Counted from the first letter of the whole stretch, positions 5,341 to 61,686 are shown. The stretch: DNA of 63,888 nucleotides, filler included, from Stramenopiles sp. TOSAG23-3 (GCA_900128585.1; 15 parts of 15 records of this genome joined end to end with filler, not necessarily neighbours in it); one strand, 5' to 3'. The notes: generated from the sequence alone by a model not told the origin. A program made the numbers and translations.

Positions 5341-5440
5341 NNNNNNNNNNNNNNNNNNNNNNNNNNNNNNNNNNNNNNNNNNNNTTAATTAATTAANNNN
5401 NNNNNNNNNNNNNNNNNNNNNNNNNNNNNNNNNNNNNNNN
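5341..5440. other. Artificial contig linker (N44-TTAATTAATTAA-N44); also at 10775, 16207, 21637, 27054, 32469, 37879, 43288, 48697, 54092, 59483, 60585, 61687, 62788
   Basis: Identical 100-nt spacer with stops in all six frames; contig lengths fall steadily from 5340 to 5291, then ~1000. Confidence 0.98.
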
Positions 5441-5570: not shown

Positions 5571-5778
5571 CCAACCTTTTCGTCTTGTTCTTTAATATTT
5601 TATATGTAGGTTTTCTGTTGAACCGTTTGGTTTGGTTTGTGTTTGGGAATAAGACCCTTTGGTTGGGGAGTATTTCTGTTTTTTCTTCTTCGATATATTT
5701 ATATTTCTTTCTGTCGTTGTAGGCGTCGTATTGAAGGGGTCACCGGAAGTACAGTATCTTCGTCCGTCCATCTCTCCG

Positions 5779-8700
5779 ATGGCATACTTTACGTCAAATG
5801 AACGATCTGTGGCTGGGACTGTGACGTCAACCCAGCGTGGTTCTTATTTCGGGACCTATTCGTCCCCGAAATTCATGCCGTCGAACAACATGGGAGTGCG
5901 CAACCAACCGTTGCCGGAGCACACCATGTCCGTGGTCGTGGAAGACCAACCGGAGACTATTGTTGCCAACCTGTTTGACTCTCGGGCCAGCCCCCCGCCC
6001 CCCATCTCGACGCAGAGAAGGCGGGCATCGCTCCTCCCGTCAACAAAAGGGAGGGTTAAGGTTGCCGTTCGGTGCCGCCCACCGTTCGAGGACGAACTAG
6101 AAGAGAATGGGGAGTTTTACCCCGTCGTTAACTGCCCGGAAAACGAGCCGACCCCGAGGGTAGAACTCTTTCTTGGCGGGAGAAGTCGCCGGAATTTCTA
6201 CTTTGACTACGTGTTTGGTCCCAGTGCGGAGCAGGGGCATGTCTACGACAATGCGGCGGGGGCGATCGTACATGGGTCCCTGAACGGCCTGAATGGCGCA
6301 ATTTTTGCGTATGGCCAAACGGGGACGGGAAAGACTTATACCATGGGAATCTTAGACGAGTTGCAAGTTGCAAGCATGGGGATAGTCCCGCGCGCGCTGT
6401 CGCATGTCTTCGGGCACATAGAAGGGGACCAAGGCTGCACTTGGACAGTTACTGTATCGTTTCTTCAGATATACCTCGAGAACGTGCAAGACCTGCTTTC
6501 GCCCCCCTCCAATGCGGTGACGGAGAGCGAGGACGGGAAACCACTCCCGTACACGGGGCTAGTCATCCGGGAAAACCCAAAGCAAGGCTTTTACGTGGAA
6601 GGCTTGCAAAAGTACACGGTGACGAACGTGGAAGAGACGGTGGAGCTTATCAATTACGGGCTACGGAACCGGGTCATGGCCCCGACCCTCATGAACACTA
6701 CCTCGTCCAGAAGCCACACCATCCTAACATTAGAGATCGAAAAGGTCATGAAAGAGTCCGCCCTGGACGGGCGCGACTACAACCGCACCTTGAAGGGGAA
6801 ATTGCTCTTGGTGGACCTGGCTGGGTCGGAACGCGTCCGGCGCACGACTAGCAAAGGGACCCGCCTGGACGAAGCAAAGTCCATCAACCAGTCGTTGAGC
6901 GCCCTAGGCAACGTTGTGGCCGCCCTCGCCGACCCCAACGCGCCCCATGTCCCGTTTCGGGACAGCAAGCTGACAAAGTTGGCGCAGGACTCCTTGGGCG
7001 GGAATGCCAACACCACGCTGATAGCCACCATCGGACCCGCGATCGAGAACAACTCCGAAACACTGAGCACGCTGCTCTTCGCTTCCCGGTGCATGCGCTT
7101 GAAGTTGAAGCCCGTAAAGAACGAAGTGGTCGATTACGCGCAGCTCGTTACGCATTTGCAGACCCAGCTTGCCGGCGCAGTTCAGATCCATAAAGAAAAA
7201 GAAGTAGCGCAGCAAGACCATTACGAAAAGATTATTCACGAAATGACCTCAGAAATAGACAAACTGCGCACGAAACAGGCCCCCCAGGTCAATTTGGACC
7301 AGCACGCCAACAGCACGCAATTCTCGCCAGGGGCCAGCAACGTTCACAGCATGGCGAACTTTGACGGCGCCGGAAACGTCGGCAAGTACGACCGGGACGT
7401 CGTTCGGCTGTCATACGAGACACTGTGCGACATCGCGACGCGAAGCTCGGTGATTCTGACACGCTGCTGCGAACGCGAGGTGGAGGCCAGCAAACGTTTT
7501 GAAGTGGAACAGAGCAAGCGCATGTCCGAGGAGGACTCCGTTCAAATGGAGGAAAAGGGAATGGCAGACAATGACACCAAGCCTGCGGCCGGGGACAACA
7601 CGCCGCACCTGAACAAATTGAAGCGCAGTGAGGCATTTGCTCGCGTGGAGCAGCGTTACGGAATCTCGGGGCTGCTCGCTGCCAAACAGGGGGACGGCGA
7701 AGGCCGTTTTGAAGGCCTGGGCCACCGCGTGCTGTACCACTTTGTGGAGGAGGCACGAAGCAGCCCAGTCTTGCCGACGGGAGAACTGGAAGAGAAGTTT
7801 TCGTACCCGGAATTTGAGGTGGTGGCTTCTGATGGCACGTTGGTGTCCATGTACGAGAAGCTGCACCAAGTTGTCAACGGAAACTTTGAAGCTCTGCGAA
7901 TCTGGGTATCTCGCCGAGACAGCCAAATGGAAGAGGCCAAGGAGCAGATTGCATTGCAGCTTGTGGAGCATCGGCAGCGGGAGGAGGAGGTGGTGAACTG
8001 GTCGTACGTTCTTAAATTTCTTTTGGCGGCCAACAGCGACCTCAAGGAGGATGTGCGAACGGCCAAAATCAGCCTGACCCAGAGTTTTCGGAAGCAAATT
8101 CAGGACGAGGTAGGGGAAGTGCGCAGCGCGGACCCTCGGGAGATTAGGGTGGTCCGGCGGCACCTTGAACAAGCTGCCCGGGAGCACGAAGGGAGCACGG
8201 GCGAAGAGCCAGCGGTGCAGAAGCAGCAACACGTAGAGATTACCTCGGACCAGAATGGCCCTACTAGTCGCCCGCAGGGGGGGGGCGACGTACCGGGAAG
8301 AAGAGCTTGTACTAGAAGACACGGGAGAAGGGGAGGACGAGGAGGCGCTCGGCACGGACAGACACATTGCTGGTGGCAGAATAGACGGGACAGACACTAG
8401 CAAGCACTCAAAAAATGCCCGGCGCTTGGCAAACTTGCGGGCCAAAGCGAAAGCGGAGCGGGAAAAGCACGAAGCGATGCAGCTGGAACGGAGCCGAAAA
8501 ATGCAGGAAACGAACAAAGAGCGAAAGGGAAAATTGCAGTGGGTGCGGCGTGGTTCTGGGGCCGATTTTTTGAAGAAATGGAAAACCCAGAACTACACAA
8601 ACAGGCGCGAGGGGAGTGACGCGAAAGCGCGCCGGGGTGCGCACATGATCAAGCGGTCGCTGGGGCTGATGCGCTCGTTTTGGTGCTCAACGGGCGAGTA

Positions 8701-9991
8701 TTTGCTGTACGGTGACACGACGCTTATGAAAGCAAAGAAGCTGCGCGACGAGGAAGACCGAATGGAGAAGAGCGACCCAAAGTCCCCTGCAGTGGAACAA
8801 GTCCGACGACGACGCCAGTCGAAAATTGTGAAAGAGACCTACAGCCAGTTGGACGAGTACATGACCATCATGTTGCAAGAGAAAAATGCGATAAACACGG
8901 GAAAGTCCAGCCATGGTCCCGAGGATGCGACAAAGAAGATGGTGGTGAGTACGCCAAAGCCCGCCGGGGAATCGTTCAGTCAGCTCGACCAGTATCTTAG
9001 CGAGCGCCCGTCCAGTGCCCCAGTCATGCAGCCGCTGAACGCGGGGACAAAAATTGGAGGCGGGGGCGATGAAATCCATAAGGAGGAGAAGACGGAGCTG
9101 CAAATTGACGACGACGAAGGGGCGCTCGCGCCCGCTGCCTCCATTGACTTGTCGGAAGTCCCGGAGCCCACGCCTGTTGAACCGTACAAGCGTAAGGAAA
9201 TGACCGTTCAGTCGCTGAGCCGCGTTGGCGGCGGTGGCTGGCTGATTCGAAAGCGCAAGGATAAGGGCGGGGCATGGGACGCTATGTTCCTCACCTTTCG
9301 AGATAAACAGACCGTACTCGCATACATGCCGCTGTCGCTGAAGGGGCAAGTGGAACTGTCTGGAGCTAGGGTGACCGAAGATATCCCAGAGGGTGCCATG
9401 ACAAGGGTTGAGAGGCAAACGAAACCGCACTCGTTCGCCGTCATTGCCCCTACGCTGAAAGGCCCGCTAATCTTGTCGGCGTACGACCAGGGCATGAAGG
9501 AGGAATGGATGCACGCAATCCGCCACGTTATCCAGGTGCAGAGAAAGCTTAAGCGCAAATCGCAATTGGCGAATCGCCGGAAATCGGTGGTGGAAAGTGC
9601 GCTCGCAGACTCGGTCTTGCTCGAGGGTGTCATGGAGAAAAAGTCCATCTCTGCGTCCATGTTTAAAAATTGGAAAACTCGCATTTTCAACCTGCGGTTG
9701 GACACGTTTACTATCGACTACTTTGACGTTTCTTTGTACGATAAGATCGACCCGACGGATGTGTACTGCGCCCCGTCGCTTACTTCGGCACACCAAGAAG
9801 CCGTCAACGACAACATCAACCCCATATGGTTTTTGAACAAGTGCAAGTTTACCTTCAGATGCTTCCTAGGGGACTTGGATGGCCCGGAAGAAGCTCAGAA
9901 AACCATTGCAGAGCTGGGGACCGACTCTGACACCCACAGACAAACGTGGGTCAAGGCGCTGATGAGCGCACACAGGGTGGCTGTGCACTGA
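5779..9991 (+). CDS. Kinesin motor with coiled coil and C-terminal PH domains; frame break at G9 run 8277-8285
   Basis: RVKVAVRCRP, AYGQTGTGKT P-loop, NTTSSRSH, LVDLAGSER, HVPFRDSKLT; second ORF (8255-9991) has PH-like segments (GWLIRK..W..F; EEWMHAI; EGVMEKK..WKTRIF; TWVKAL). Removing one G joins the two ORFs. Confidence 0.88.
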
Positions 9992-21636: not shown

Positions 21637-21866
21637 NNNNNNNNNNNNNNNNNNNNNNNNNNNNNNNNNNNNNNNNNNNNTTAATTAATTAANNNNNNNN
21701 NNNNNNNNNNNNNNNNNNNNNNNNNNNNNNNNNNNNATGTTCATGTTGATATTGCACAACATATTTTCTTAATAGAGAAATCTTGACCGTTTTAAGAGAT
21801 AATTACGAACGGAAAAAACAGAGCACTTCTTCAGATAAAAATGCATGGCAACAAAGGCATATTTTA

Positions 21867-21924
21867 GTTTAACGGACTTGTCGGTTTAACGGATGTCGGT
21901 TTAACGGCCCTGTCGGTTTAACGG
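21867..21924 (+). repeat. Tandem 14-mer TGTCGGTTTAACGG x3 plus a partial copy
   Basis: Full copies at 21879, 21894 and 21911; GTTTAACGG at 21867. Confidence 0.95.
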
Positions 21925-22112
21925 GCACGGTTGTTCTGCGACGACGACGGTTGGTGTGCTTGGCTGTCTGAGCTGTCCAAACCATGGTGCCGGTATACAG
22001 GAATGGTGTCTTTCGCCACATTGATAAAGGATAGAAAGTTTAAAACTAGTTAGATAGTGAAGTATAGACTTGTTATCCAGAGAATCTTATAAATGAATTT
22101 GATTTTATTAAG

Positions 22113-23774
22113 ATGCCATCCAGAACACCATCATGCCCACGAACCTCGTCAGCACGGCGCGGAAAGAAGCGAACATATAGCAAGTACTTGGGCCCGCAGA
22201 GAAAGAGTTCACCAAGGTTGAGAGAGCGCAGGAAAAAGAATGCTGAGATTGCCCGGGCTCATAGGCAAGCACACCGATCATTAAAAATCTTGATGGAAGA
22301 GGACAACAAATCGATCAAGCGAAAAGACGCAAAGAAACTATTAGGTCGTGGAATCGGAAAATTTGTACGCTCCGCAAAGAAGGTTGCAGAACGAACCAAA
22401 ATAATAGAACCGAAACTATCTGCTATGACAGACGAAATACGCTTGGCTCTAGAACTGCTAAAGCATAGTATCCCTGGATGGAAAACGTTGTGGGAAAAGT
22501 TAGCACATGACGCCGATGATGGCTTTTGTGGAACAATGGACAATGATTCACTTGTAAGAGTTCTGTCGCTGGTGAAGTATACAATTTCCGAGGTTGGTAT
22601 GCTGCCGGAATCAGCATTTTCCGCTGTAGAGTGTGGTTGTGGCGTTTTGTGTTTTGCCAAGGCCATTAGAATAGCTTTACCGCAAGTTCACCTATTTGGG
22701 TTTGAATACAAAAACTATTTCAATAGTGTCTTCTCAGACCTTACGCAATTGGCAGCAGCTGTTCGTGCGCTGAATGAAAAAGTTTCGATTCATTCTGGAA
22801 TTTTATTGAAATCCATCGGCAATTTTGAGTATAACTTTGGTATAGGGTTTAGCGAAGCACTATCGATGCGCAACTTTTTAAAGGATAATGGTGCTAGTAA
22901 AGCTGTCTATTCCTCGCAAAACATGGTTCTATTTGCATTCTGGGAGGGGTGGTCACGTCGAGCCAAAAGAGGATTGGCTCATTGTTGTTCAAAATCATCG
23001 GAAGTGAAAATTATCTTCACTGGAGATCGATCAAAAAAAAGCGATAAAAACACATTTCCAACAGAAGAGAAACTAAAGTTTCTGAATGGCACAAAAAGAG
23101 CATGGATTAATGAGTTTGTTCTATTTCGTAAAATTCCCGTGCATTTAGCTAGTAAAAAAGGTAAAGAAACATTTGATGGATGCATCTTTGTAAGGCGTAG
23201 CCTTTTCGTTCGAAAGTACTCTGTCCTCAAGGTAGTGAGGTCACCCTTACCACCTTCCGCAGATCTGGATTTGTGTAAATGGATGGTGTTGTGGGAACCA
23301 TCTTCCTCAATTTCGTTGAACATTGCCCTGCAGGCAGTGTCACATGATATTTGTATGTCAAGTTCCTGGATATACAGCGGGATGCCAAGTCGATGGCATG
23401 TAATGGCCCACACACACCAATTCGATGAAGAACAGCTGTGTGCATACGTTGAGAGATGCATTGTAAAATATTTGACGTCAAGTTGGTTTGTTTCTGGTGG
23501 ATGTGAAACTGTAAAGAGAAAGCAAGAGGCGCTGTTCGAATTGCAAAACTTGCAATGTTCCCAACCTCGCCAAAAGGAATTACAGAGGAAGTTAAATCGC
23601 ACATTACAAAACAGAGTCGCAACATTGCTCAATCGAAAGTTTACCGGGACATGTTTGCTCCTAAAATCCCAAAGTTTCGGTGCACAATTTGTTGCACCAC
23701 TGGAACGAAAGAAGATATACTGGCGCATGCAGTCAATCAAGATTGCCGCGGGAATTATGACAATATTCAGCTAG
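22113..23774 (+). CDS. Putative class I SAM-dependent methyltransferase-like protein (DOT1-like signature) with basic N-terminus
   Basis: 553 aa; FCGTMD..helix..AVECGCGVL..helix..LFGFEY..VLFAFWEGW parallels DOT1 YGE/FVDLGSGVG/YGVE/VIFVNNF; K/R-rich N-terminus. Confidence 0.55.
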   Translation: MPSRTPSCPRTSSARRGKKRTYSKYLGPQRKSSPRLRERRKKNAEIARAHRQAHRSLKILMEEDNKSIKRKDAKKLLGRGIGKFVRSAKKVAERTKIIEPKLSAMTDEIRLALELLKHSIPGWKTLWEKLAHDADDGFCGTMDNDSLVRVLSLVKYTISEVGMLPESAFSAVECGCGVLCFAKAIRIALPQVHLFGFEYKNYFNSVFSDLTQLAAAVRALNEKVSIHSGILLKSIGNFEYNFGIGFSEALSMRNFLKDNGASKAVYSSQNMVLFAFWEGWSRRAKRGLAHCCSKSSEVKIIFTGDRSKKSDKNTFPTEEKLKFLNGTKRAWINEFVLFRKIPVHLASKKGKETFDGCIFVRRSLFVRKYSVLKVVRSPLPPSADLDLCKWMVLWEPSSSISLNIALQAVSHDICMSSSWIYSGMPSRWHVMAHTHQFDEEQLCAYVERCIVKYLTSSWFVSGGCETVKRKQEALFELQNLQCSQPRQKELQRKLNRTLQNRVATLLNRKFTGTCLLLKSQSFGAQFVAPLERKKIYWRMQSIKIAAGIMTIFS

Positions 23775-26293
23775 CTTCAGCAGACTCGTGTGATTTAGAA
23801 TTCGATGAATCGTCAACAGAGTTGTTGAAGGACATGTTTGTTAATTTTAGTGCAACACTGAGTGCAAAAGACCAACATCTATTTGTCGGTGAAAAGGGCA
23901 AAGAAAATGTTATACGGGAATGTGTTGCAAAAATGGAAGACGCACTAAAAAATTATACAGAATCAAAACGTCAGGTGGAACTACTGAACCGGTGGCGGGC
24001 ACATGTGACAAAACGGCAACAAAACATCCTCAATCGTACTAAAAAGAGACTTGTTGAAACAAGGTTTGTCAACGATACAATTGAAATCGAAATTGGGGAA
24101 GTCCTCTTCCCTGTAAAGATTAGTTCTTTGGAGACAAGATGGGATGGCGAAACGGCCCGCAAAATGCTTGACGATTTTGGTATTCGTGATTGTCTGTGTC
24201 AGATTCCAGGCCTTCGTTTTGATCATGGATTCGTTAAAAAATGTGGAAAGATAATAGAAAAACGAATTGATATGCTGTTCAGACACAAATTTCGAAAACT
24301 ATTGTGGAGAAAGCACGATGGTTTGTATATTGACATTCATGTCGATGGCGCGCCCAGAACGCAGCGTGGGTTGCAAAAAGACCAATTTGTTGTTGTCTTA
24401 CGGCTTTTGAACGAAAATGTCGCTCTGGAACGGTCAATGCTCATTCCTGTGGTAATAGCAAATGTAAAGGAAACCTCAGCGGAAGCGAGGCAAATCTGCA
24501 AGATAATCGGCAAATCCTTGCTGGAATTCCAGAAGAGGGTACGCAAGGATGGGCTTGGCTTGACTGGTCACAAAGACGTCAAATTTGTAGCTGCATCTGA
24601 CCTAAAGGCATTAAATATGTTATTTGGTTTTACAGAGTATACCGGTATATTCCCATATCCAAGTAAAATATTTTCATCGCGTGAAAATTCGGGGTGGGGC
24701 AAAGTTTATGGAAGAAATTCTGACACCCCATTCAAGAACTTTGAAGCTCGAAAGCTTAGCGTAGACGAATTTAAAGCTGAGTTTGAAGCCAGGCGTTCCA
24801 AAATCGGAAAAAAGCTTGAGGAAGAACTGAACACCGCACGCGGAAGGCCATCTCAGTGCAGAAGGCGGTCAAAGGGTTCTGCGTCATCGAAGAAGAAATT
24901 AAAGCGTTCTAAGGCTGCAGCAATTGCTATGCTGGCAGAGACTGACTTACCGCAACCTGTCCAAATGAAACCAGAGATTTTGTTGTATCTGCGAGGCGAG
25001 CTTCAAAAAATTCCTGAAGATGAACGTAGAGATTGGGCAAAGTATTGTGGACTTGGAATCGTTGATCCGTGTCCGATGTTTGGGGAACTGTTGTGGGACA
25101 AATTGGCACTTTGTGCGTTGCACTACAAAACGACAAAAGTACTTGACATATTGAATTTGTGCACACATACGCTTGCAGCGTACGATGAAATTCTGGGTCA
25201 CTCCATTGCTGACACAGACAAGCTTGGGAAGTCATGTAAATTCTTCTTGGAAACTATCAGCAGTTCTCCCAAATTTCGTGGCAAACTGATGGTATATGCA
25301 GAAAAAACAGAGACACTGATTCTAAAAACTGCAGGCGAAGCATCTTTTCGGGCTTTGAACAATGAATCCACAAAGAAACTTGAGGCTTATCTCAAGGGCG
25401 ACGAGTTGTGCTCAAGGCGACTCATCGGAGAACAAGCAAATGTTGTATTGTCTTTTGTCGAGGATTTGCTTGAAGTACTAATAGAAGCGCGCAATCAATC
25501 TTCAAGCAAAGCGATAGGTAAATTTGAAAAGGGGCTGACAGCCACAATCAGTGGTTTATATTGCGTGCTGAATTACTCGCGCGACATTGTTTACATAATG
25601 AGTTTAAGTTGCCACCCACAAAACGAAAGTGAACCCAGGCGAAAAAAGCGGTTGCAGAAAATTGCAAAACGTTATCGGCGTACCGCTGCCAAACTTGAGT
25701 ATGTGCAACAGTTTGTATTCCCAGAATGGTTCCGGCCATACGACCTTACTGTTTCATGCTGTGGTCCAGACATCATGGACGATTTGGTATCAGACGGGTT
25801 TCTTATGGGAGAGGTCGGGTTGTTGGAGGTATTTGAAGCGTACCACCAATTTGTAAAATCATTGCCAGTAATGAAATTTTACTCAAAAACTGATACTCAA
25901 GAATCCGCATGTATGGCGAAGTTAATAAAAACGCTTTTAACAAACATATACGCCGAAGACGTCGATCCACTTCCTTTGAAAGAAGAACGCAAACCATACA
26001 TTCATCCAAAAAGTGGAAAGTTAACAAAGTCAAGGAAAGAATCGCATATTAAAGTTATTCATGAATATGACGGTATTGGTTGTGTTTGTGGAAGAAAAGT
26101 CGCCAATGAAGATTGCGCATATTGCAGCTACGGTGTAGTTTCAGAATTAGACGATCTAGTAAGCAATTGCGCCGATTATCTTCTTTGTGGAACATACTCT
26201 GATGCAGATGTAAAGTCCGTTCACAAGTCAAGAAAGAAATTAGTTCAGTTTACATTTACTAAGGGGCTTGGAGTCTCTAAACATAGGAAATAA
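23555..26293 (+). CDS. RAG1/Transib/Chapaev-like DDE transposase
   Basis: 912 aa; IHVDGA (D264), PVVIANVKET, ASDLKALNMLFG (D349), CALH (H523), RLIGEQAN, RPYDLTVSCCGPDIM, MGEVGLLEVFEAYH (E761); N-terminal CxxC..H..C and C-terminal CxC..CxxC. Confidence 0.72.
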   Translation: MFPTSPKGITEEVKSHITKQSRNIAQSKVYRDMFAPKIPKFRCTICCTTGTKEDILAHAVNQDCRGNYDNIQLASADSCDLEFDESSTELLKDMFVNFSATLSAKDQHLFVGEKGKENVIRECVAKMEDALKNYTESKRQVELLNRWRAHVTKRQQNILNRTKKRLVETRFVNDTIEIEIGEVLFPVKISSLETRWDGETARKMLDDFGIRDCLCQIPGLRFDHGFVKKCGKIIEKRIDMLFRHKFRKLLWRKHDGLYIDIHVDGAPRTQRGLQKDQFVVVLRLLNENVALERSMLIPVVIANVKETSAEARQICKIIGKSLLEFQKRVRKDGLGLTGHKDVKFVAASDLKALNMLFGFTEYTGIFPYPSKIFSSRENSGWGKVYGRNSDTPFKNFEARKLSVDEFKAEFEARRSKIGKKLEEELNTARGRPSQCRRRSKGSASSKKKLKRSKAAAIAMLAETDLPQPVQMKPEILLYLRGELQKIPEDERRDWAKYCGLGIVDPCPMFGELLWDKLALCALHYKTTKVLDILNLCTHTLAAYDEILGHSIADTDKLGKSCKFFLETISSSPKFRGKLMVYAEKTETLILKTAGEASFRALNNESTKKLEAYLKGDELCSRRLIGEQANVVLSFVEDLLEVLIEARNQSSSKAIGKFEKGLTATISGLYCVLNYSRDIVYIMSLSCHPQNESEPRRKKRLQKIAKRYRRTAAKLEYVQQFVFPEWFRPYDLTVSCCGPDIMDDLVSDGFLMGEVGLLEVFEAYHQFVKSLPVMKFYSKTDTQESACMAKLIKTLLTNIYAEDVDPLPLKEERKPYIHPKSGKLTKSRKESHIKVIHEYDGIGCVCGRKVANEDCAYCSYGVVSELDDLVSNCADYLLCGTYSDADVKSVHKSRKKLVQFTFTKGLGVSKHRK

Positions 26294-26416
26294 TATAAAA
26301 AATGGACAATAATGTTAAAACTGTTAATATAATTTGTTTTTTTTTAAACACAAGAAAATTGGCTGTGAAGGAGCTCGGCCTGTGTTTCGGGGCGTACGAC
26401 TTGAAAAATCCACGCA

Positions 26417-27052
26417 CTACCATGTGGATAACTCACGGGGATTGGCATCTTCTTCCCATCGACCATTTGCTTTACGGAAAGTTCGTATTTGAAAGGTCAT
26501 CCATAAATCTAGCGATCGCCTCCTCTTCTTGAGAAACAATTTCACGCCAGAAACGAATCGGTATTTTTGCATCGCTCCGACGTTCTTGGAAAACAGATAC
26601 TTTGCGAATTGCGATTTGCAATATTGCAAAGATACTGCCTTCCAGGTCTTCAGTGTTTCTTTTGGGAGTGTCAGACTGTAGTCCAATGTCTCATTCAGCA
26701 TTTGAATATCGCGATATGACATATGCGTAATACTAACTTCCTCTTGGTAAGCATTAATGTATTGTCCAAAATTATAATGTCGTTTCAGCTCTGTTCCAAA
26801 CCCAGGTAGCAAACCATTCATATGATCGCAAAACTCTGATAATGTATGTGGTTGATCAAATTTTATTCCTGCTCGTAAAATATGTATCTTGCTGCACGGA
26901 GGCCATTCTCGCACTTTTTGTGTCACTGTGTCCGCTGACATATTCTGGTTGGGTTGATTTCTACCAAATATACACGTAAACCTTGCTCGAATATCAATTT
27001 CCATCTGTTGCAAGATCCACACTGCCACTTCGTCTGCTTTTGGTTTCAGTCT
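26417..27052 (-). CDS. Hypothetical protein, 5' truncated, convergent on the transposase
   Basis: Frame open from contig end (~211 codons); no recognised domain. Confidence 0.55.
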   Translation of the reverse strand, partial: RLKPKADEVAVWILQQMEIDIRARFTCIFGRNQPNQNMSADTVTQKVREWPPCSKIHILRAGIKFDQPHTLSEFCDHMNGLLPGFGTELKRHYNFGQYINAYQEEVSITHMSYRDIQMLNETLDYSLTLPKETLKTWKAVSLQYCKSQFAKYLFSKNVGAMQKYRFVSGVKLFLKKRRRSLDLWMTFQIRTFRKANGRWEEDANPRELSTW

Positions 27053-27153
27053 TNNNNNNNNNNNNNNNNNNNNNNNNNNNNNNNNNNNNNNNNNNNNTTA
27101 ATTAATTAANNNNNNNNNNNNNNNNNNNNNNNNNNNNNNNNNNNNNNNNNNNN

Positions 27154-30404: not shown

Positions 30405-32136
30405 ATGGCCAACCTTGCTTTGCGGCTTCTTCAGTGCACCGTGTTTCTTCTCTCTGCGGGGACGCTGCGCGCGTGCACGACGACTGGGGTGACCCTTGGG
30501 GCGACCAACACGGGCAAAATATTTTCGTCCCAATCAAACGATGGGGATGGCGTTAGTGACACTCGTATTTTTCGTGTCCCAAACATGACGCATGAGGCTG
30601 GGAGTATGCGACCTGTGTACCCCTACATTGGTGACTACCCGCGTTACGTCGGAACCTCTCGGGGTCAGCAAAACTACCAAGTAGGAAAGACGGTCACGAA
30701 GCCGATGGGGCACATCCCTCAAGTGCCTTTCACCCATGGGTTTTATGACGGCTACTTTGGCTTGCTGAACGACGCGGGGCTCGGCATCGCGGAGTCGACG
30801 TGCAGCGCCAGGATCGTGGGGGCGTTGCCAATTTCGCAAGGTGGAGCAGGCTTGTGGTACACGGACGAGCTCTCCAGAGTGGCTATGGAGCGGGAGTCGG
30901 AGGCCCGGAGCGCCGTCCAGCTAATGGGCAATTTGGCAGTCAAAGGGGGGTATTATGGTGGGGATGGGGCAAACTTGCCCGGTGAATCTTTGATTGTGTC
31001 CGACAAAAACGAAGTTTGGGTATTTCATATACTTCCCAGCGATTCCAACGGCACGTCCGCCATCTGGGCGGCGCAACGTGTGCCCGACGGCCACGTAACC
31101 GTTGTCCCCAACGTGTTTGTCCTCCGAGAAATAGATTTCAACGACAAAGAAAATTTCTTGTACTCGGCTAACATTCAAAGCATAGCCGAGAAGAACGGGT
31201 GGTGGAAACAAGGCGAACCGTTCGATTTTACAAAGATCTATTCCGGCGGCGAGTACCACCACCGGTATTACTCAGGCCGGCGGTGGTGGGGGGGCGATGA
31301 AAATATTTGCCCCGTCACAAAATTTCCCTACTAAGTACAATGATTGGCGAAACGATGCGCCGTACCCATTTTCCGTAAAGCCGGACAAGGACGTCACGTT
31401 GGAAGACGTAATGGCCGTAATGAGAACCTTCTACGAAGGCACAGAGTTCAGTCTTACAAACGGTTTGCAATCGGGCGCGTTTGGAAACGGGAACAGGTAC
31501 CCGGTGACTGAAGGAGCCATCAAAGGGAATTGGGAGCGTTCGATCGCGTTGTACCGCACCGACTACTCTTATATTTTGGAGATCGACGGCAACACTACTT
31601 TGCCGGCAGAAGTCAGGAATACCATCTGGTTCGGCCCTTCTGCAGCGCACGTGACAGAGTATGTCCCTTTTTTCGGCGGCCAGCAGTTTATACTGGACGA
31701 TTACCGCGTTGGCCACAAAGGCGACCTGCCAGACACTACCTCTGCCATCTGGGCGTTTCGATACGTGCAACAACTGGTTAATTTGCGGTTTGGAAACATG
31801 ATGGCGTACGTTAAGCAAGCACAAGCGCAGGCGCACTCGAATTCGCTGGCTGCCCAGGCTTTGGCTCGAGCAAAATTTATGGAACATGAAAACATGACTG
31901 CTATGTGCACGTTTATGAACAGTAATGCGGAAGCTGTGTTGGAACAGTGGCGAGGAATGAGGGATTTTCTGGTGTACAAATTTGCCGACGGAGCGGAGTA
32001 TGAAGACCCTAGCCATGGCAGCGCAGGAACTGCTACTGCCCTTGGTTACCCAAATTGGTGGCTTCAAGACGTTGGGTACCAAAATGGCCCTCCACCCGCA
32101 GACGGCGACAGCCAATTTACAATCCACCGAGGGTAA
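30405..32136 (+). CDS. Secreted peptidase C69 (dipeptidase/secernin, Ntn hydrolase); frame break at G7 run 31288-31294
   Basis: Signal peptide then AC.T nucleophile; GIAESTC; ARSAVQLMG.LA...GY; WAAQRVPDGH; YSGRRWW; PFSVKPD; WERSI. Removing one G gives RWWGAMKIF and joins the ORFs. Confidence 0.9.
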
Positions 32137-47214: not shown

Positions 47215-47356
47215 NNNNNNNNNNNNNNNNNNNNNNNNNNNNNNNNNNNNNNNNNNNNNNNNNNNNNNNNNNNNNNNNNNNNNNNNNNNNNNNNNNNNNN
47301 NNNNNNNNNNNNNNNNNNNNNNNNNNNNNNNNNNNNNNNNNNNNNNNNNNNNNNNN
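47215..47356. other. Genuine scaffold gap (N run without linker)
   Basis: 142 N with no TTAATTAATTAA; flanked by repeat sequence. Confidence 0.9.
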
Positions 47357-60684: not shown

Positions 60685-61686
60685 CTGCGTACACCAAGTA
60701 CTGCATGTGGTCGGGGTTCATTTGCTTCTCGCGCACGTCCTCTGGGCGCCCGCCCATCATATACCATATACCGTAGTTTTCGTCGTCCACATTCTCGTAG
60801 CCTGGGATGAGCCCCATGTCCTTCATGCAGTCCCCAAAAACCCGACAAGGCCCACTGCACGCCTTTGGGCGCATGATTTTCATGCCTGCCCCTACGCGGA
60901 CCCTGGAGGACATGTCATCGTCCTCGCCCCCCCACCCAAAATACAAGTTCGAGTATCCATTTACATTTATCATGTGCTGGTACGACATGGATGCTACGCC
61001 CCCGAAGAGCTCTTTGTACAAGCACTTGTTTCGGTGCGACACTGTGTAGACACTGAGGTGCCTGGGCCCCGGCTCATCGTCTTTGGGGCATCCATAAGGC
61101 ATCGCATCCGACATGGACACCATGTCCACGTCGTGCATTACAAAGCAAAAATTGTAGCCCGGTGCAACAGCCTTTTCCAGCGGCACAACTTTCGTGGCCA
61201 CGTGGGCACCGACATTCAACAGTTTCGCACGGTTGAACTTTTTCTTGTCGGTCTGATCGATGATAAATATTTGGTACCGCAAATTTTGCTTTCGAAGCAA
61301 CGGGTGCATGTGAGACAAAAACCCCTTCAAATAATGTTCGCGATTGCGGTAGGGAACGACGATGGCCACGGTATCCGTCGCTTCACAATCCGTGGGGGAC
61401 CACCAGCCATTTTCCTCATTCGGTTGGTACAACTCCTCAAGCTCCGAGAAAGATTTGATCGGTTCCTCAACCGAGGGCAGCGGGTTCTGGACCAACTCAC
61501 TCGGAGTCGGTTGCTTGCACAGTTTTCGATCAACTTTTTTGATGATCGAATCGTCATTGGAAATTTCGATGAAGTCGTTAAACCTGTCCCCGAAAAGTTT
61601 TTCGGACGCCAACACTCGACCAATAATTGCCACCCTTCGCCTTCTGGACCTTTCTTCTTTGGCAACATTTTTCTCCCGCTCCAAAC
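60685..61686 (-). CDS. Beta-1,4-galactosyltransferase-like (GT7), truncated at both ends
   Basis: AIVVPYRNRE, FNRAKLLNVG, HDVD, LFGGV, NGYSNLYFGWGGEDDD. Confidence 0.93.

What the first reader, a model, noticed from the sequence alone, without database searches (positions are those of the whole stretch)
23555..26293. Intact RAG1/Transib-like DDE transposase in a protist contig, lacking the canonical Zn ligands
Seen: a 912-aa uninterrupted ORF with these motifs in order: IHVDGA (D264, nt 24344), PVVIANVKET, ASDLKALNMLFG (D349, nt 24599), CALH, RLIGEQAN, RPYDLTVSCCGPDIM, MGEVGLLEVFEAYH (E761, nt 25835), plus Cys clusters at both ends. Known: the RAG1 core reads SCDGM (D600), PLCLMLADE, YDEKLVREVEG (D708), DALH, MNGNFAR, NYFHKTLAHVPEII, IGAWASEGNESGN (E962), and Transib/Chapaev share this layout. 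RAG-like elements outside animals are rarely reported (e.g. the pelagophyte Aureococcus). Inference: this is a divergent member of that clade. Both halves of the core Zn site look replaced (FPYP where CxxC is expected; YD..CC where H..H is expected), and the D-to-E spacing is much longer (412 aa vs 254 in RAG1). That points to a distinct family or a domesticated recombinase.
Basis: partly seen in the sequence, partly recalled or inferred. Interest (0 to 1): 0.88.

Follow-up and report, generated by a model that had tools for sequence, protein, structure and literature searches.

The report
RAG1-like transposase fused to methyltransferase
A marine protist gene encodes a large enzyme whose core is predicted to fold like the RAG1/Transib cut-and-paste DNA transposase, but it lacks their zinc site and carries a methyltransferase domain, which points to an undescribed branch of the enzyme family behind antibody-gene recombination.

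Summary
The 912-aa ORF (23555..26293) and all quoted motifs are real. However, the ORF is only the C-terminal two-thirds of a ~1408-aa gene. In this assembly a missing 46-nt stretch at 23513/23514 splits that gene. A second sample of the same organism and a metatranscriptome contig carry the missing stretch. The "contig" is a 5317-bp scaffold (21737..27053) inside an artificial chain of scaffolds.

The N-terminal 467 aa fold as a class I SAM methyltransferase, with DOT1 enzymes as the top matches. The family is small (29 representatives). One lineage swaps the methyltransferase for a Ulp1 protease. No TIRs or TSDs were found, so mobility is unproven.

Verdict: a new zinc-less, methyltransferase-fused variant of the RAG1/Transib–CMC kind.

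The parts
21737..27053 (.). The real scaffold (5317 bp) that holds the gene. Everything outside is an unrelated scaffold.
   Evidence: N44-TTAATTAATTAA-N44 linkers at 21637-21736 and 27054-27153
21866..21924 (+). Tandem array of four (G)GTTTAACGG motifs, period ~16-17 nt, about 190-250 nt upstream of the ATG. Role unknown: promoter element or subterminal binding sites.
   Evidence: It is the only cluster in the window. One more 1-mismatch match lies at 61575.
22113..23513 (+). First 467 codons of the full gene: basic N-terminus plus the methyltransferase domain and a helical linker.
   Evidence: tblastn of P0003 residues 1-468, 99.4% identity; model me746d90ec2be
22407..23195 (+). Class I SAM-methyltransferase fold (aa 99-361 of the full protein). 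Motif I E-x-G-C-G-V starts at aa 173 and the post-I G-F-E lies at aa 196-198.
23513..23514 (+). Site where the window lacks 46 nt that are present in other samples. This causes the frameshift between the two ORFs.
   Evidence: P0003 carries 16 extra residues here. X2 and X20 contigs continue with letters encoding them.
23555..26293 (+). The 912-aa ORF of the finding, equal to residues 497-1408 of the full protein.
23681..23746 (+). Single C2H2-type zinc finger (aa 43-64; C-x2-C...H...C/H). The model shows a beta-beta-alpha unit.
   Evidence: Invariant C, C, G, H columns; strands 41-43 and helix 52-60
23951..25978 (+). RAG1/Transib-like core (aa 133-808): RNase H-like subdomain plus a large helical insertion and a C-terminal helical part.
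24344..24346 (+). D264, first catalytic Asp candidate (DGAP motif), within strand 257-267.
24470..24472 (+). E306 (NxxExS motif), between strand 297-302 and helix 309-332. Candidate for the fourth acidic residue, as in the RAG1 'DEDE tetrad'.
   Evidence: Invariant in the 6 full-length members (E802 of P0003)
24599..24601 (+). D349, second catalytic Asp candidate (D-x-K-A), just after strand 342-347.
25112..25123 (+). C520-A-L-H523, the (C/D)(2)H-type motif.
   Evidence: C and H invariant in 10 of 10 aligned members. The motif class is described in PMC5499845.
25733..25846 (+). R727-P-Y-D730 ... G-L-L-E758-x-x-E761-x-x-H764. E761 is the catalytic Glu candidate, in helix 758-769.
   Evidence: R, Y, D, E761 and H764 invariant; helix
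26081..26125 (+). C-terminal Cys4 cluster C-x-C-G-(R)-x(7-9)-C-x2-C. It is not the RAG1L CX2CX3GHX4C knuckle.
26417..27053 (-). Convergent downstream ORF (211 codons, runs off the scaffold end). No known family. It may or may not belong to the same unit.
   Evidence: Not related to the L001/L002 partner gene. An RNA-library contig covers 26723-26948.

Best explanation
The finding is the catalytic C-terminal part of one ~1408-aa gene from a small, unannotated family of marine eukaryotes.

Domain order:
1. A basic tail.
2. A class I SAM-methyltransferase domain (DOT1-like is a lead).
3. One C2H2 zinc finger.
4. A core with the overall architecture of the RAG1/Transib transposases: an RNase H-like subdomain carrying D264, E306 and D349, then a large helical insertion, then a helix carrying E761.
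5. A C-terminal Cys4 cluster.

Shown here:
- The single-gene structure.
- The family-wide conservation of the acidic residues.
- The predicted fold matches.
- The complete absence of the C(2)C/H(3-4)H zinc ligands.

Inferred:
- The protein is a metal-dependent DDE(+E) cut-and-paste transposase or recombinase. It would work like RAG/Transib/hAT enzymes: nick at an element end, hairpin on the flanking DNA, then strand transfer.
- The zinc finger and Cys4 cluster bind DNA.
- The helical domain that replaces the zinc-binding module folds without zinc.

Speculative:
- The fused methyltransferase marks chromatin or nucleic acid at the element or its target, for example to counter silencing or to choose targets.

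I lean towards a low-copy DNA transposon rather than a host gene. Mobility is not shown.
For: Single gene:
- P0003 (1408 aa, 99% identical) spans both ORFs.
- The 46 missing nt are present in X2 (same organism, another sample) and in an RNA-library contig of X20.
- Full-length relatives of 1408-1534 aa share the layout. L002 has an uninterrupted ORF of ~1500 codons.

Fold:
- The AF2 model used no templates: pLDDT 70.7, pTM 0.69, 538 of 912 residues at pLDDT>=70.
- Foldseek: the 35 listed rows among the 44 hits at E<=0.001 are 34 RAG1 chains and 1 HzTransib.

Catalytic residues:
- D264, E306, D349 and E761 fall in conserved columns. They sit at strand 1, after strand 3, after strand 4 and in a helix.
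- The C-terminal offset of the RAG1 alignment (808 to 1007) puts E761 within about 2 residues of RAG1 E962. E962 is an active-site residue (PDB titles 'E962Q').

Methyltransferase:
-. Motif I plus the post-I acidic residue occur in 6 of 6 members. The Atlas lead gives SAM-MTase/DOT1.

Transposon-like traits:
- The N-terminal module was swapped for Ulp1/C48 in P0038 (E 2e-28). There is a C48 fragment in P0005. C48 domains recur in CACTA, MULE and Crypton elements.
- There are four deep lineages with a patchy, rare distribution.
- GC3 is 0.39, against 0.53-0.69 in 9 of 10 other ORFs of the window. On L001 it is 0.30 against 0.40-0.45 in neighbouring genes.
- Autonomous Transibs are typically present in one or a few copies (PMC4411706, passages).
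Against: - No sequence method links the family to any transposase. Pfam gives nothing at E<=10 for 29 members and for 9 short segments. PDB sequence searches give nothing or only noise.
- The defining Zn motifs are absent. CxxC occurs within 60 aa after D2 in 0 of 11 members. H(3-4)H occurs within 60 aa before E in 0 of 25. The RAG1L C-terminal knuckle occurs in 0 of 26.
- No TIR was found on the scaffold. No TSD and no second copy in the window were found.
- The alignments behind the models are shallow (15 and 6 sequences).
- This copy is frameshifted.
- The RNA evidence is three short contigs from one metatranscriptome, which may contain DNA.
Confidence: 0.75

Rival explanations
1. Same enzyme fold, but the gene is a domesticated, immobile host gene. 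It would be a RAG-like recombinase or chromatin factor that uses its methyltransferase and DNA-binding parts for a cellular task, not a transposon.
For: - There is only one locus in the window, and clusters hold 1-5 members.
- No TIRs were found.
- Marine metagenome contigs match at >=99% identity with few variants: 5 SNPs, 3 of them synonymous.
- Long intact ORFs with conserved catalytic residues occur across four deep lineages.
- L001 and L002 keep the same convergent neighbour gene, and L001 sits among ordinary genes.
Against: - The distribution is rare and patchy. There are only 29 representatives among 1.84 billion.
- The N-terminal module was swapped for a Ulp1 protease, a transposon-typical passenger.
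- Third-position composition is atypical compared with neighbouring genes.
- Low copy number is normal for autonomous Transibs.
- The scaffold is too short to contain the ends if the unit has two genes.
Confidence: 0.3
2. The family belongs to the CACTA/EnSpm-Plavaka side of the CMCT clade rather than to Transib/RAG1. RAG1 and Transib would then top the fold search only because they are the only solved CMCT structures.
For: - Named ESM-Atlas neighbours are Plavaka (0.89) and Transposase_21 (0.89, 0.87), not RAG1.
- Ulp1 fusions are documented for CACTA.
Against: - Atlas scores below 0.9 are leads only.
- There is no Pfam hit to PF02992 or PF18759.
- The match covers 85% of the RAG1 core (468 of 549 residues), including parts beyond the RNase H fold.
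- The family lacks the C(2)C/H(3-4)H motifs that all CMCT lineages share.
Confidence: 0.35
3. The RAG1-like fold is a modelling artefact of a shallow alignment. The protein would then be an unrelated, mostly helical protein with chance acidic motifs.
For: - The alignment has only 15 sequences.
- 204 residues have pLDDT<50.
- Sequence identity to RAG1 is 8-10%.
Against: - The beta-beta-beta-alpha-beta-alpha unit with Asp at strand ends is also seen in a template-free propensity profile.
- The five models agree (pLDDT 67.7-70.7).
Confidence: 0.06
4. In this genome the gene is a dead, frameshifted pseudogene. Only the relatives would be functional.
For: The window lacks 46 nt and needs two frames.
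Against: - Both halves remain free of stops and are 99% identical to P0003: 6 differences in 912 residues, and 2 in the first 467 plus one at the break.
- Another sample of the same organism and an RNA-library contig carry the full form.
- Other scaffolds of this assembly also show same-strand overlapping ORF pairs that look like indel errors (8255-8400; 31297-31334). This was not followed up.
Confidence: 0.15

Closest known systems
RAG1 / RAG1-like (RAGL) recombinase-transposase core
   Same: - Four conserved acidic residues occur in the order D-E-D-E, like the 'DEDE tetrad' described for RAG1L.
- There is a (C/D)xxH-type motif.
- A gene converges downstream, an orientation also seen for RAG1L/RAG2L.
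   Different: - No detectable sequence similarity.
- None of the four Zn ligands of the ZnB module.
- No CX2CX3GHX4C tail.
- No RING or N-terminal RAG1 motifs detected by Pfam.
- No kelch/PHD RAG2-like partner by Pfam.
- The second-D-to-E distance is 412 aa, against 254 in RAG1 (recalled RAG1 numbering).
- A methyltransferase domain is fused in front.
Transib transposase (HzTransib)
   Same: - A single-protein transposase of low copy number.
   Different: - The zinc motifs are missing.
- No 5-bp TSD or CAC-type TIR was found on the scaffold. The ends may lie outside it.
- The protein is about three times longer, with extra domains.
CMCT clade: CACTA/EnSpm, Mirage, Chapaev, Plavaka, ESTA, Lanisha (Kojima 2025, PMC12730594)
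   Same: - Language-model neighbours are Plavaka and Transposase_21.
- It has a DDE core with a long insertion.
- A Ulp1/C48 module occurs in one lineage, as in plant CACTA elements.
   Different: - The clade is defined by C(2)C and H(3-4)H between the second D and E. Both are absent here.
- No Pfam match.
- CA..TG termini and 2-5 bp TSDs could not be examined.
P-element transposase / hAT (Hermes)
   Different: These are clearly weaker matches than RAG1/Transib. Hermes gives Foldseek E 0.099 and probability 0.18.
DOT1 histone methyltransferases and other class I SAM methyltransferases
   Same: - A seven-strand Rossmann-like fold with motif I and the post-I acidic residue.
- The Atlas lead gives DOT1.
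   Different: - No Pfam DOT1 (PF08123) hit.
- Other methyltransferases follow within 1-2 Z units, so the subfamily and the substrate are open.
- No stand-alone relative was found.
SETMAR and transposon-encoded chromatin enzymes (SET in Harbinger/MuDR, TET/JBP in fungal transposons)
   Same: Precedent for a methyltransferase or other epigenetic enzyme joined to, or carried with, a transposase.
   Different: Those cases involve SET or TET/JBP domains and other transposase superfamilies. The passages and listings I saw showed no DOT1-like or class I methyltransferase fused to a RAG1/Transib-fold core.

Membership tests
Transib / RAG1 superfamily | Three-dimensional architecture of the RAG1 core / Transib transposase | tested here: met
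   [not shown]
Transib / RAG1 superfamily | Catalytic D, (E), D, E on an RNase H-like scaffold, converging on one active site | tested here: inconclusive
   D264, E306, D349 and E761 are conserved and lie at canonical secondary-structure positions.
Transib / RAG1 superfamily and CMCT clade | C(2)C after the second D and H(3-4)H before the E (Zn site) | tested here: not met
   CxxC in 0 of 11 members and H(3-4)H in 0 of 25. Aligned positions read P/C/F..S/C/T and D-x4-C/T/Q/Y/F. Definition taken from PMC12730594.
Transib / RAG1 superfamily | Sequence-profile membership (Pfam RAG1 PF12940; similarity to solved RAG1/Transib sequences) | tested here: not met
   No Pfam hit at E<=10 for 29 members and 9 segments. 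PDB phmmer/hmmsearch give no RAG1 or Transib hit.
Transib / RAG1 superfamily | TIRs with CAC-type termini and 5-bp target-site duplication | tested here: inconclusive
   There is no inverted repeat between the 376-nt upstream and 760-nt downstream flanks. The best match is 9 nt at E 0.83. The scaffold may not reach the element ends, and no second copy is available.
RAG1-like (RAGL) | C-terminal CX2CX3GHX4C zinc knuckle | tested here: not met
   0 of 26 members. A different Cys4 cluster is present. Motif taken from PMC10462144.
RAG1-like (RAGL) | Adjacent RAG2-like (kelch, PHD) partner gene | tested here: inconclusive
   Convergent downstream ORFs exist, but none has a Pfam hit to kelch or PHD. 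The L001/L002 partner is a coiled-coil protein. The window ORF is truncated by the scaffold end.
CACTA/EnSpm, Plavaka (Pfam PF02992, PF18759) | Profile match to the family models | tested here: not met
   No hits. There are only language-model neighbours at 0.87-0.89.
CMCT clade | 5'-CA..TG-3' termini and 2-5 bp TSDs | not testable with these tools
   Element ends were not identified. No whole genome is held.
Class I SAM-dependent methyltransferase | Seven-strand Rossmann-like fold with GxGxG-type motif I and an acidic residue at the end of strand 2 | tested here: met
   [not shown]
DOT1 family | Specific placement with DOT1 (Pfam PF08123 or clearly best structural match) | tested here: inconclusive
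   [not shown]
Ulp1 / Peptidase_C48 | C48 catalytic domain | tested here: not met
   It is absent from the window gene. It is present in relative P0038 (E 2.1e-28) and as a sub-threshold fragment in P0005 (20.2 bits against a cut-off of 20.7).

The most novel reading that the evidence does not exclude
This family would be a previously unrecognised, superfamily-level branch of RAG1/Transib-fold transposases in marine protists. It would have dispensed with the zinc-binding module and would carry its own DOT1-like methyltransferase. One reading is a 'self-marking' transposon that writes an anti-silencing or targeting mark on chromatin at its own ends or targets. The other reading is a domesticated RAG-like recombinase, coupled to methylation, that carries out programmed DNA rearrangement in these cells.
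Probability: 0.2. Interest if true: 0.9.

Novelty: new variant of a known kind. Interest (0 to 1): 0.7.

Why it matters
RAG1 is the enzyme that assembles antibody and T-cell-receptor genes. Its origin from Transib-type transposons is a classic case of domestication, and relatives outside animals are few. Known examples are an Aureococcus RAGL element and some bacterial, fungal and plant Transibs (PMC9435367, passages).

If confirmed, a family with the whole RAG1/Transib architecture but no recognisable sequence similarity and no zinc site would matter in three ways:
- It would extend the known structural range of this enzyme class.
- It would show that the ZnB zinc ligands are dispensable for the fold.
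- It would give a new outgroup for reconstructing how RAG, Transib and CACTA-type transposases diverged.

The in-frame fusion with a class I (possibly DOT1-like) methyltransferase would add a new kind of transposase–epigenetic-enzyme coupling. It also offers directly testable hypotheses about how mobile elements interact with chromatin. More generally, it shows that structure prediction can recover transposase families that Pfam and HMMER miss in environmental protist data.

Tried and rejected
- **Pfam.** Searched the two ORFs, 7 then 29 family members, and 9 short core segments. Nothing relevant turned up.
- **PDB sequence searches.** A single sequence and two profiles gave nothing or noise at E>=0.37.
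- **Word-indexed protein search.** It found only P0003. With a profile it found only 2 of the known members. With the N-terminal domain alone it found nothing among proteins of 256-818 aa.
- **Locus scans.** Metagenome contigs with P0003 gave none. With profile A1 they gave 2 loci. Viral contigs gave none. Prokaryote genome contigs gave none.
- **tblastn** against phages and plasmids found no match.
- **BFVD viral structures** gave 0 hits at E<=0.001.
- **Rfam** on the whole window found nothing.
- **Whole-genome tools.** No genome is held. The L001/L002 records are not held. Without a genome handle I could not reach bacterial Transibs for a profile-profile test.
- **Apparent element boundary at 26334-26366 (rejected).** Depth reached 204 there, with many loose ends. 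It is a T-rich low-complexity 33-mer shared with unrelated contigs.
- **46 nt as an intron (rejected).** The boundaries are not GT..AG, its removal breaks the frame, and the RNA-library contig retains it.
- **Conserved two-gene module including the window (rejected).** The L001/L002 partner genes are homologous to each other (E 4e-7). The window's downstream ORF is not detectably related (hhalign probability 0.1%).
- **Uncovered stretch.** 21915-22092 had no laid contig in any of the four runs. I draw no conclusion from it.
- **Not used.** Complex prediction was not used. Supplements (for example Tao et al. Fig. S1, which lists RAG1L fragments in other early eukaryotes) could not be seen. They might already list relatives.
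- **Literature searches** for a prior description found none in the listings.

Full report
**The observation**

The window is not one contig. It is a chain of small scaffolds in order of falling length, joined by N44-TTAATTAATTAA-N44 linkers. The finding lies on a 5317-bp scaffold, 21737..27053, and only that stretch is genuine context. The other scaffolds carry ordinary eukaryotic genes: kinesin, WDR19/IFT, an ankyrin-polycystin channel, patatin and GYF. The source is therefore a flagellated eukaryote.

**Gene structure**

- A 553-aa ORF (22113..23774) overlaps the start of the 912-aa ORF in another frame.
- The only close relative in 5.8 billion clustered proteins is P0003, a 1408-aa model that is 99% identical.
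- By tblastn, its residues 1-468 map to 22113..23516 and residues 483-1408 map to 23513..26290.
- The window therefore lacks 46 nt (16 codons minus 2 nt) at 23513/23514, which shifts the frame.
- Contigs from another sample of the same coded organism (X2) continue across this point with letters that encode the missing residues. So does a 151-nt contig from a metatranscriptome (X20).
- The stretch is not a GT..AG intron, and removing it breaks the frame.
- The natural product is therefore a ~1408-aa protein. The window copy is either a deletion allele or an assembly error.
- P0001 differs from P0003 at 6 of 912 residues. Two of these differences (R328G, G594S) are the variants seen in marine metagenome contigs. 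Three further variants there are synonymous.

**The family**

- An exhaustive phmmer search of 1.84 billion representatives found 29 proteins at E<=0.001, 21 at <=1e-10 and 11 at <=1e-30.
- All sit on short contigs, and their clusters hold 1-5 members.
- Full-length members (1408-1534 aa, plus a 1989-aa model with extra parts) share one layout:
  - an N-terminal domain with a G-C-G motif;
  - a C-x2-C...H finger;
  - the motif series DGAP, NxxExS, D-x-K-A, C-A-L-H-x-K-T, R-L-I-G-x-Q-A-N, R-P-Y-D and G-L-L-E-x-x-E-x-x-H;
  - a C-x-C-G...C-x2-C cluster.
- A maximum-likelihood tree of 14 members gives four well-supported lineages. The G-C-G domain occurs in three of them.
- In the fourth lineage, P0038 instead carries a bona fide Ulp1/Peptidase_C48 domain (E 2.1e-28).
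- Such protease domains are recurrent passengers of CACTA, MULE and Crypton elements (PMC2528002 and PMC3212892, passages).
- Two distant relatives on metagenome contigs (L001 and L002, 41% identical to each other) each have a homologous ~430-aa coiled-coil gene converging downstream.
- The window also has a convergent downstream ORF, but it is not detectably related.

**Sequence-based classification fails**

- Pfam gives nothing relevant for the ORFs, for all 29 members or for 9 short segments, even at E<=10.
- Searches of PDB sequences with the protein and with two profiles give nothing or noise.
- ESM-Atlas feature neighbours are unnamed eukaryotic clusters (Haptophyta noted). Among named ones are Plavaka and Transposase_21 at 0.87-0.89. 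These are leads only.

**Structure-based classification**

- Template-free AlphaFold2 on a 15-sequence alignment gave mean pLDDT 70.7 and pTM 0.69.
- The model shows strands 257-267, 276-284 and 297-302, helix 309-332, strand 342-347 and helix 350-357, followed by a large helical region. A crude propensity profile had given the same order.
- Foldseek against the PDB returned 44 hits at E<=0.001. The 35 listed rows are 34 RAG1 chains (best E 6.8e-7, probability 1.0, ~630-820 columns, TM ~0.5 on the target) and one HzTransib. BbRAGL and three more HzTransib entries follow. Hermes is next at E 0.099 and probability 0.18.
- VIA-align on Foldseek's top chains gave these results:

|---|---|---|---|---|
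| Mouse RAG1 | 17.6 | 4.3 | 468 | model 133-808 on RAG1 459-1007 |
| HzTransib | 15.5 | 4.6 | 430 of 480 | model 133-841 on chain 21-496 |
| BbRAGL | 15.0 | 4.6 | 469 | model 134-809 on chain 546-1109 |
| P-element transposase | 10.2 | 6.8 | 368 | next family |
| ISCth4 | 7.4 | 10.7 | 256 | |
| Retroviral integrase cores | ~6.5 | 3.1-3.6 | 108-113 | |

- The match thus covers nearly the whole RAG1 core downstream of the nonamer-binding domain, not just the RNase H fold.
- D264 lies in strand 1, E306 between strand 3 and helix 1, D349 just after strand 4, and E761 in a helix.
- The C-terminal offset of the alignment places E761 within about two residues of RAG1 E962, an active-site residue.

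**What is missing**

- Martin et al. 2023 list, for RAG1L, the DEDE tetrad, four Zn ligands and a C-terminal CX2CX3GHX4C knuckle (passages).
- In this family, CxxC occurs within 60 aa after the second D in 0 of 11 members. H(3-4)H occurs within 60 aa before the E in 0 of 25. The knuckle occurs in 0 of 26.
- At the aligned places, single Cys residues survive in some members: C-x-P-S in two and P-H-T-C in one. An invariant Asp stands where the first His would be. This looks like a decayed site, but that reading is inference.
- No inverted repeat links the two non-coding ends of the scaffold, and no second copy is available, so TIRs and TSDs remain unknown.

**The N-terminal domain**

- The 467-aa model (6 sequences, pLDDT 67.3) is an alternating beta/alpha domain with seven strands.
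- Foldseek finds 151 hits at E<=0.001. The listed rows are SAM-dependent methyltransferases and relatives, among them T. brucei DOT1A (E 7.1e-5, TM 0.54 on the target) and human DOT1L.
- Motif I and the acidic residue at the end of strand 2 are present in 6 of 6 members.
- The fold is secure. The DOT1 subfamily and the substrate are not.

**Transposon or host gene?**

For a mobile element:
- The family is rare and patchy.
- The N-terminal module has been swapped.
- One lineage has a Ulp1 fusion.
- GC3 is lower than in neighbouring genes, both in the window and on L001.
- Autonomous Transibs are usually present in one or a few copies (PMC4411706, passages).

For domestication:
- There is a single locus.
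- Population contigs are near-identical.
- L001 and L002 share a conserved neighbour.
- No ends have been found.

I lean towards a low-copy transposon (roughly 0.45 against 0.30, the rest undecided).

**Mechanism**

The protein probably acts as a metal-dependent DDE(+E) enzyme in the manner of RAG, Transib and hAT transposases. These nick at the element end, form a hairpin on flanking DNA and then transfer strands (PMC5499845, passages). This is inferred from fold and residue conservation alone. A role for the methyltransferase in marking chromatin, as proposed for other transposon-borne epigenetic enzymes, is speculation.

**Novelty**

In eight literature searches and the passages read, I found no description of either of these:
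- a zinc-less RAG1/Transib-fold family;
- such a core fused to a class I methyltransferase.

Supplementary lists, for example the RAG1L fragments in 'other primitive eukaryotes' of PMC9435367, could not be seen. I rate the finding a new variant of a known kind, with interest 0.7.

Noticed in passing
window 1-63888 (linkers e.g. 5341-5440, 21637-21736, 27054-27153): The window is an artificial chain of about 15 scaffolds sorted by falling length (5340 down to 5291 bp, then about 1001 bp). They are joined by N44-TTAATTAATTAA-N44 linkers. One scaffold has an internal 142-N gap at 47215-47356.
   Followed up: yes
window 21866-21924: Four tandem copies of (G)GTTTAACGG with a 15-17 nt period lie about 200 nt upstream of the gene's ATG. 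There is no comparable cluster elsewhere in the window. It could be a promoter element or a transposase-binding subterminal repeat.
   Followed up: partly
window 23962 / 26864: One metagenome contig (X4, 314 nt, depth 3) joins 23962 directly to 26864 and skips 2901 nt. This removes most of the core and joins it to the downstream ORF. It may be an internally deleted copy or a chimeric contig.
   Followed up: no
window 21815: An X4 contig matches up to 21815 and then runs on for 134 unlike letters. An X2 contig ends at 21806. This could be a boundary of some kind upstream of the gene, or a strain difference.
   Followed up: no
window 26334-26366: A T-rich low-complexity 33-mer between the two convergent ORFs attracts unrelated contigs at very high depth (98-204 in X2).
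   Followed up: yes
window 22113-27052 versus other scaffolds: GC3 of both halves of the gene and of the downstream ORF is 0.39-0.40. In 9 of 10 other ORFs tested it is 0.53-0.69 (WDR19 is 0.38). L001 shows the same trend: 0.30 against 0.40-0.45.
   Followed up: partly
window 8255-8400 and 31297-31334: Same-strand ORF pairs overlap in different frames on other scaffolds: kinesin ORF 5659-8400 with the PH-domain ORF 8255-9991, and 30405-31334 with 31297-32136. These look like further frameshifts, so the assembly may have indel errors.
   Followed up: no
L001 1840-3144 (-) and L002 5037-6320 (-): A ~430-aa coiled-coil protein of no known family converges on the big gene in both distant relatives (pairwise E 4e-7). 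It could be a partner gene in that lineage.
   Followed up: partly
P0038 (aa 5-143) and P0005 (aa 3-34, 310-409): P0038 fuses a Ulp1/C48 protease to the same core. P0005 is a 1989-aa model with a C48 fragment and a thioredoxin domain in front, and may be a chimeric gene model.
   Followed up: partly
window 24845-24943 (aa 431-463 of the ORF): A K/R/S-rich, low-confidence insert lies between the RNase H-like part and the helical domain. Its length varies among relatives. It looks like a nuclear-localisation-type segment.
   Followed up: no
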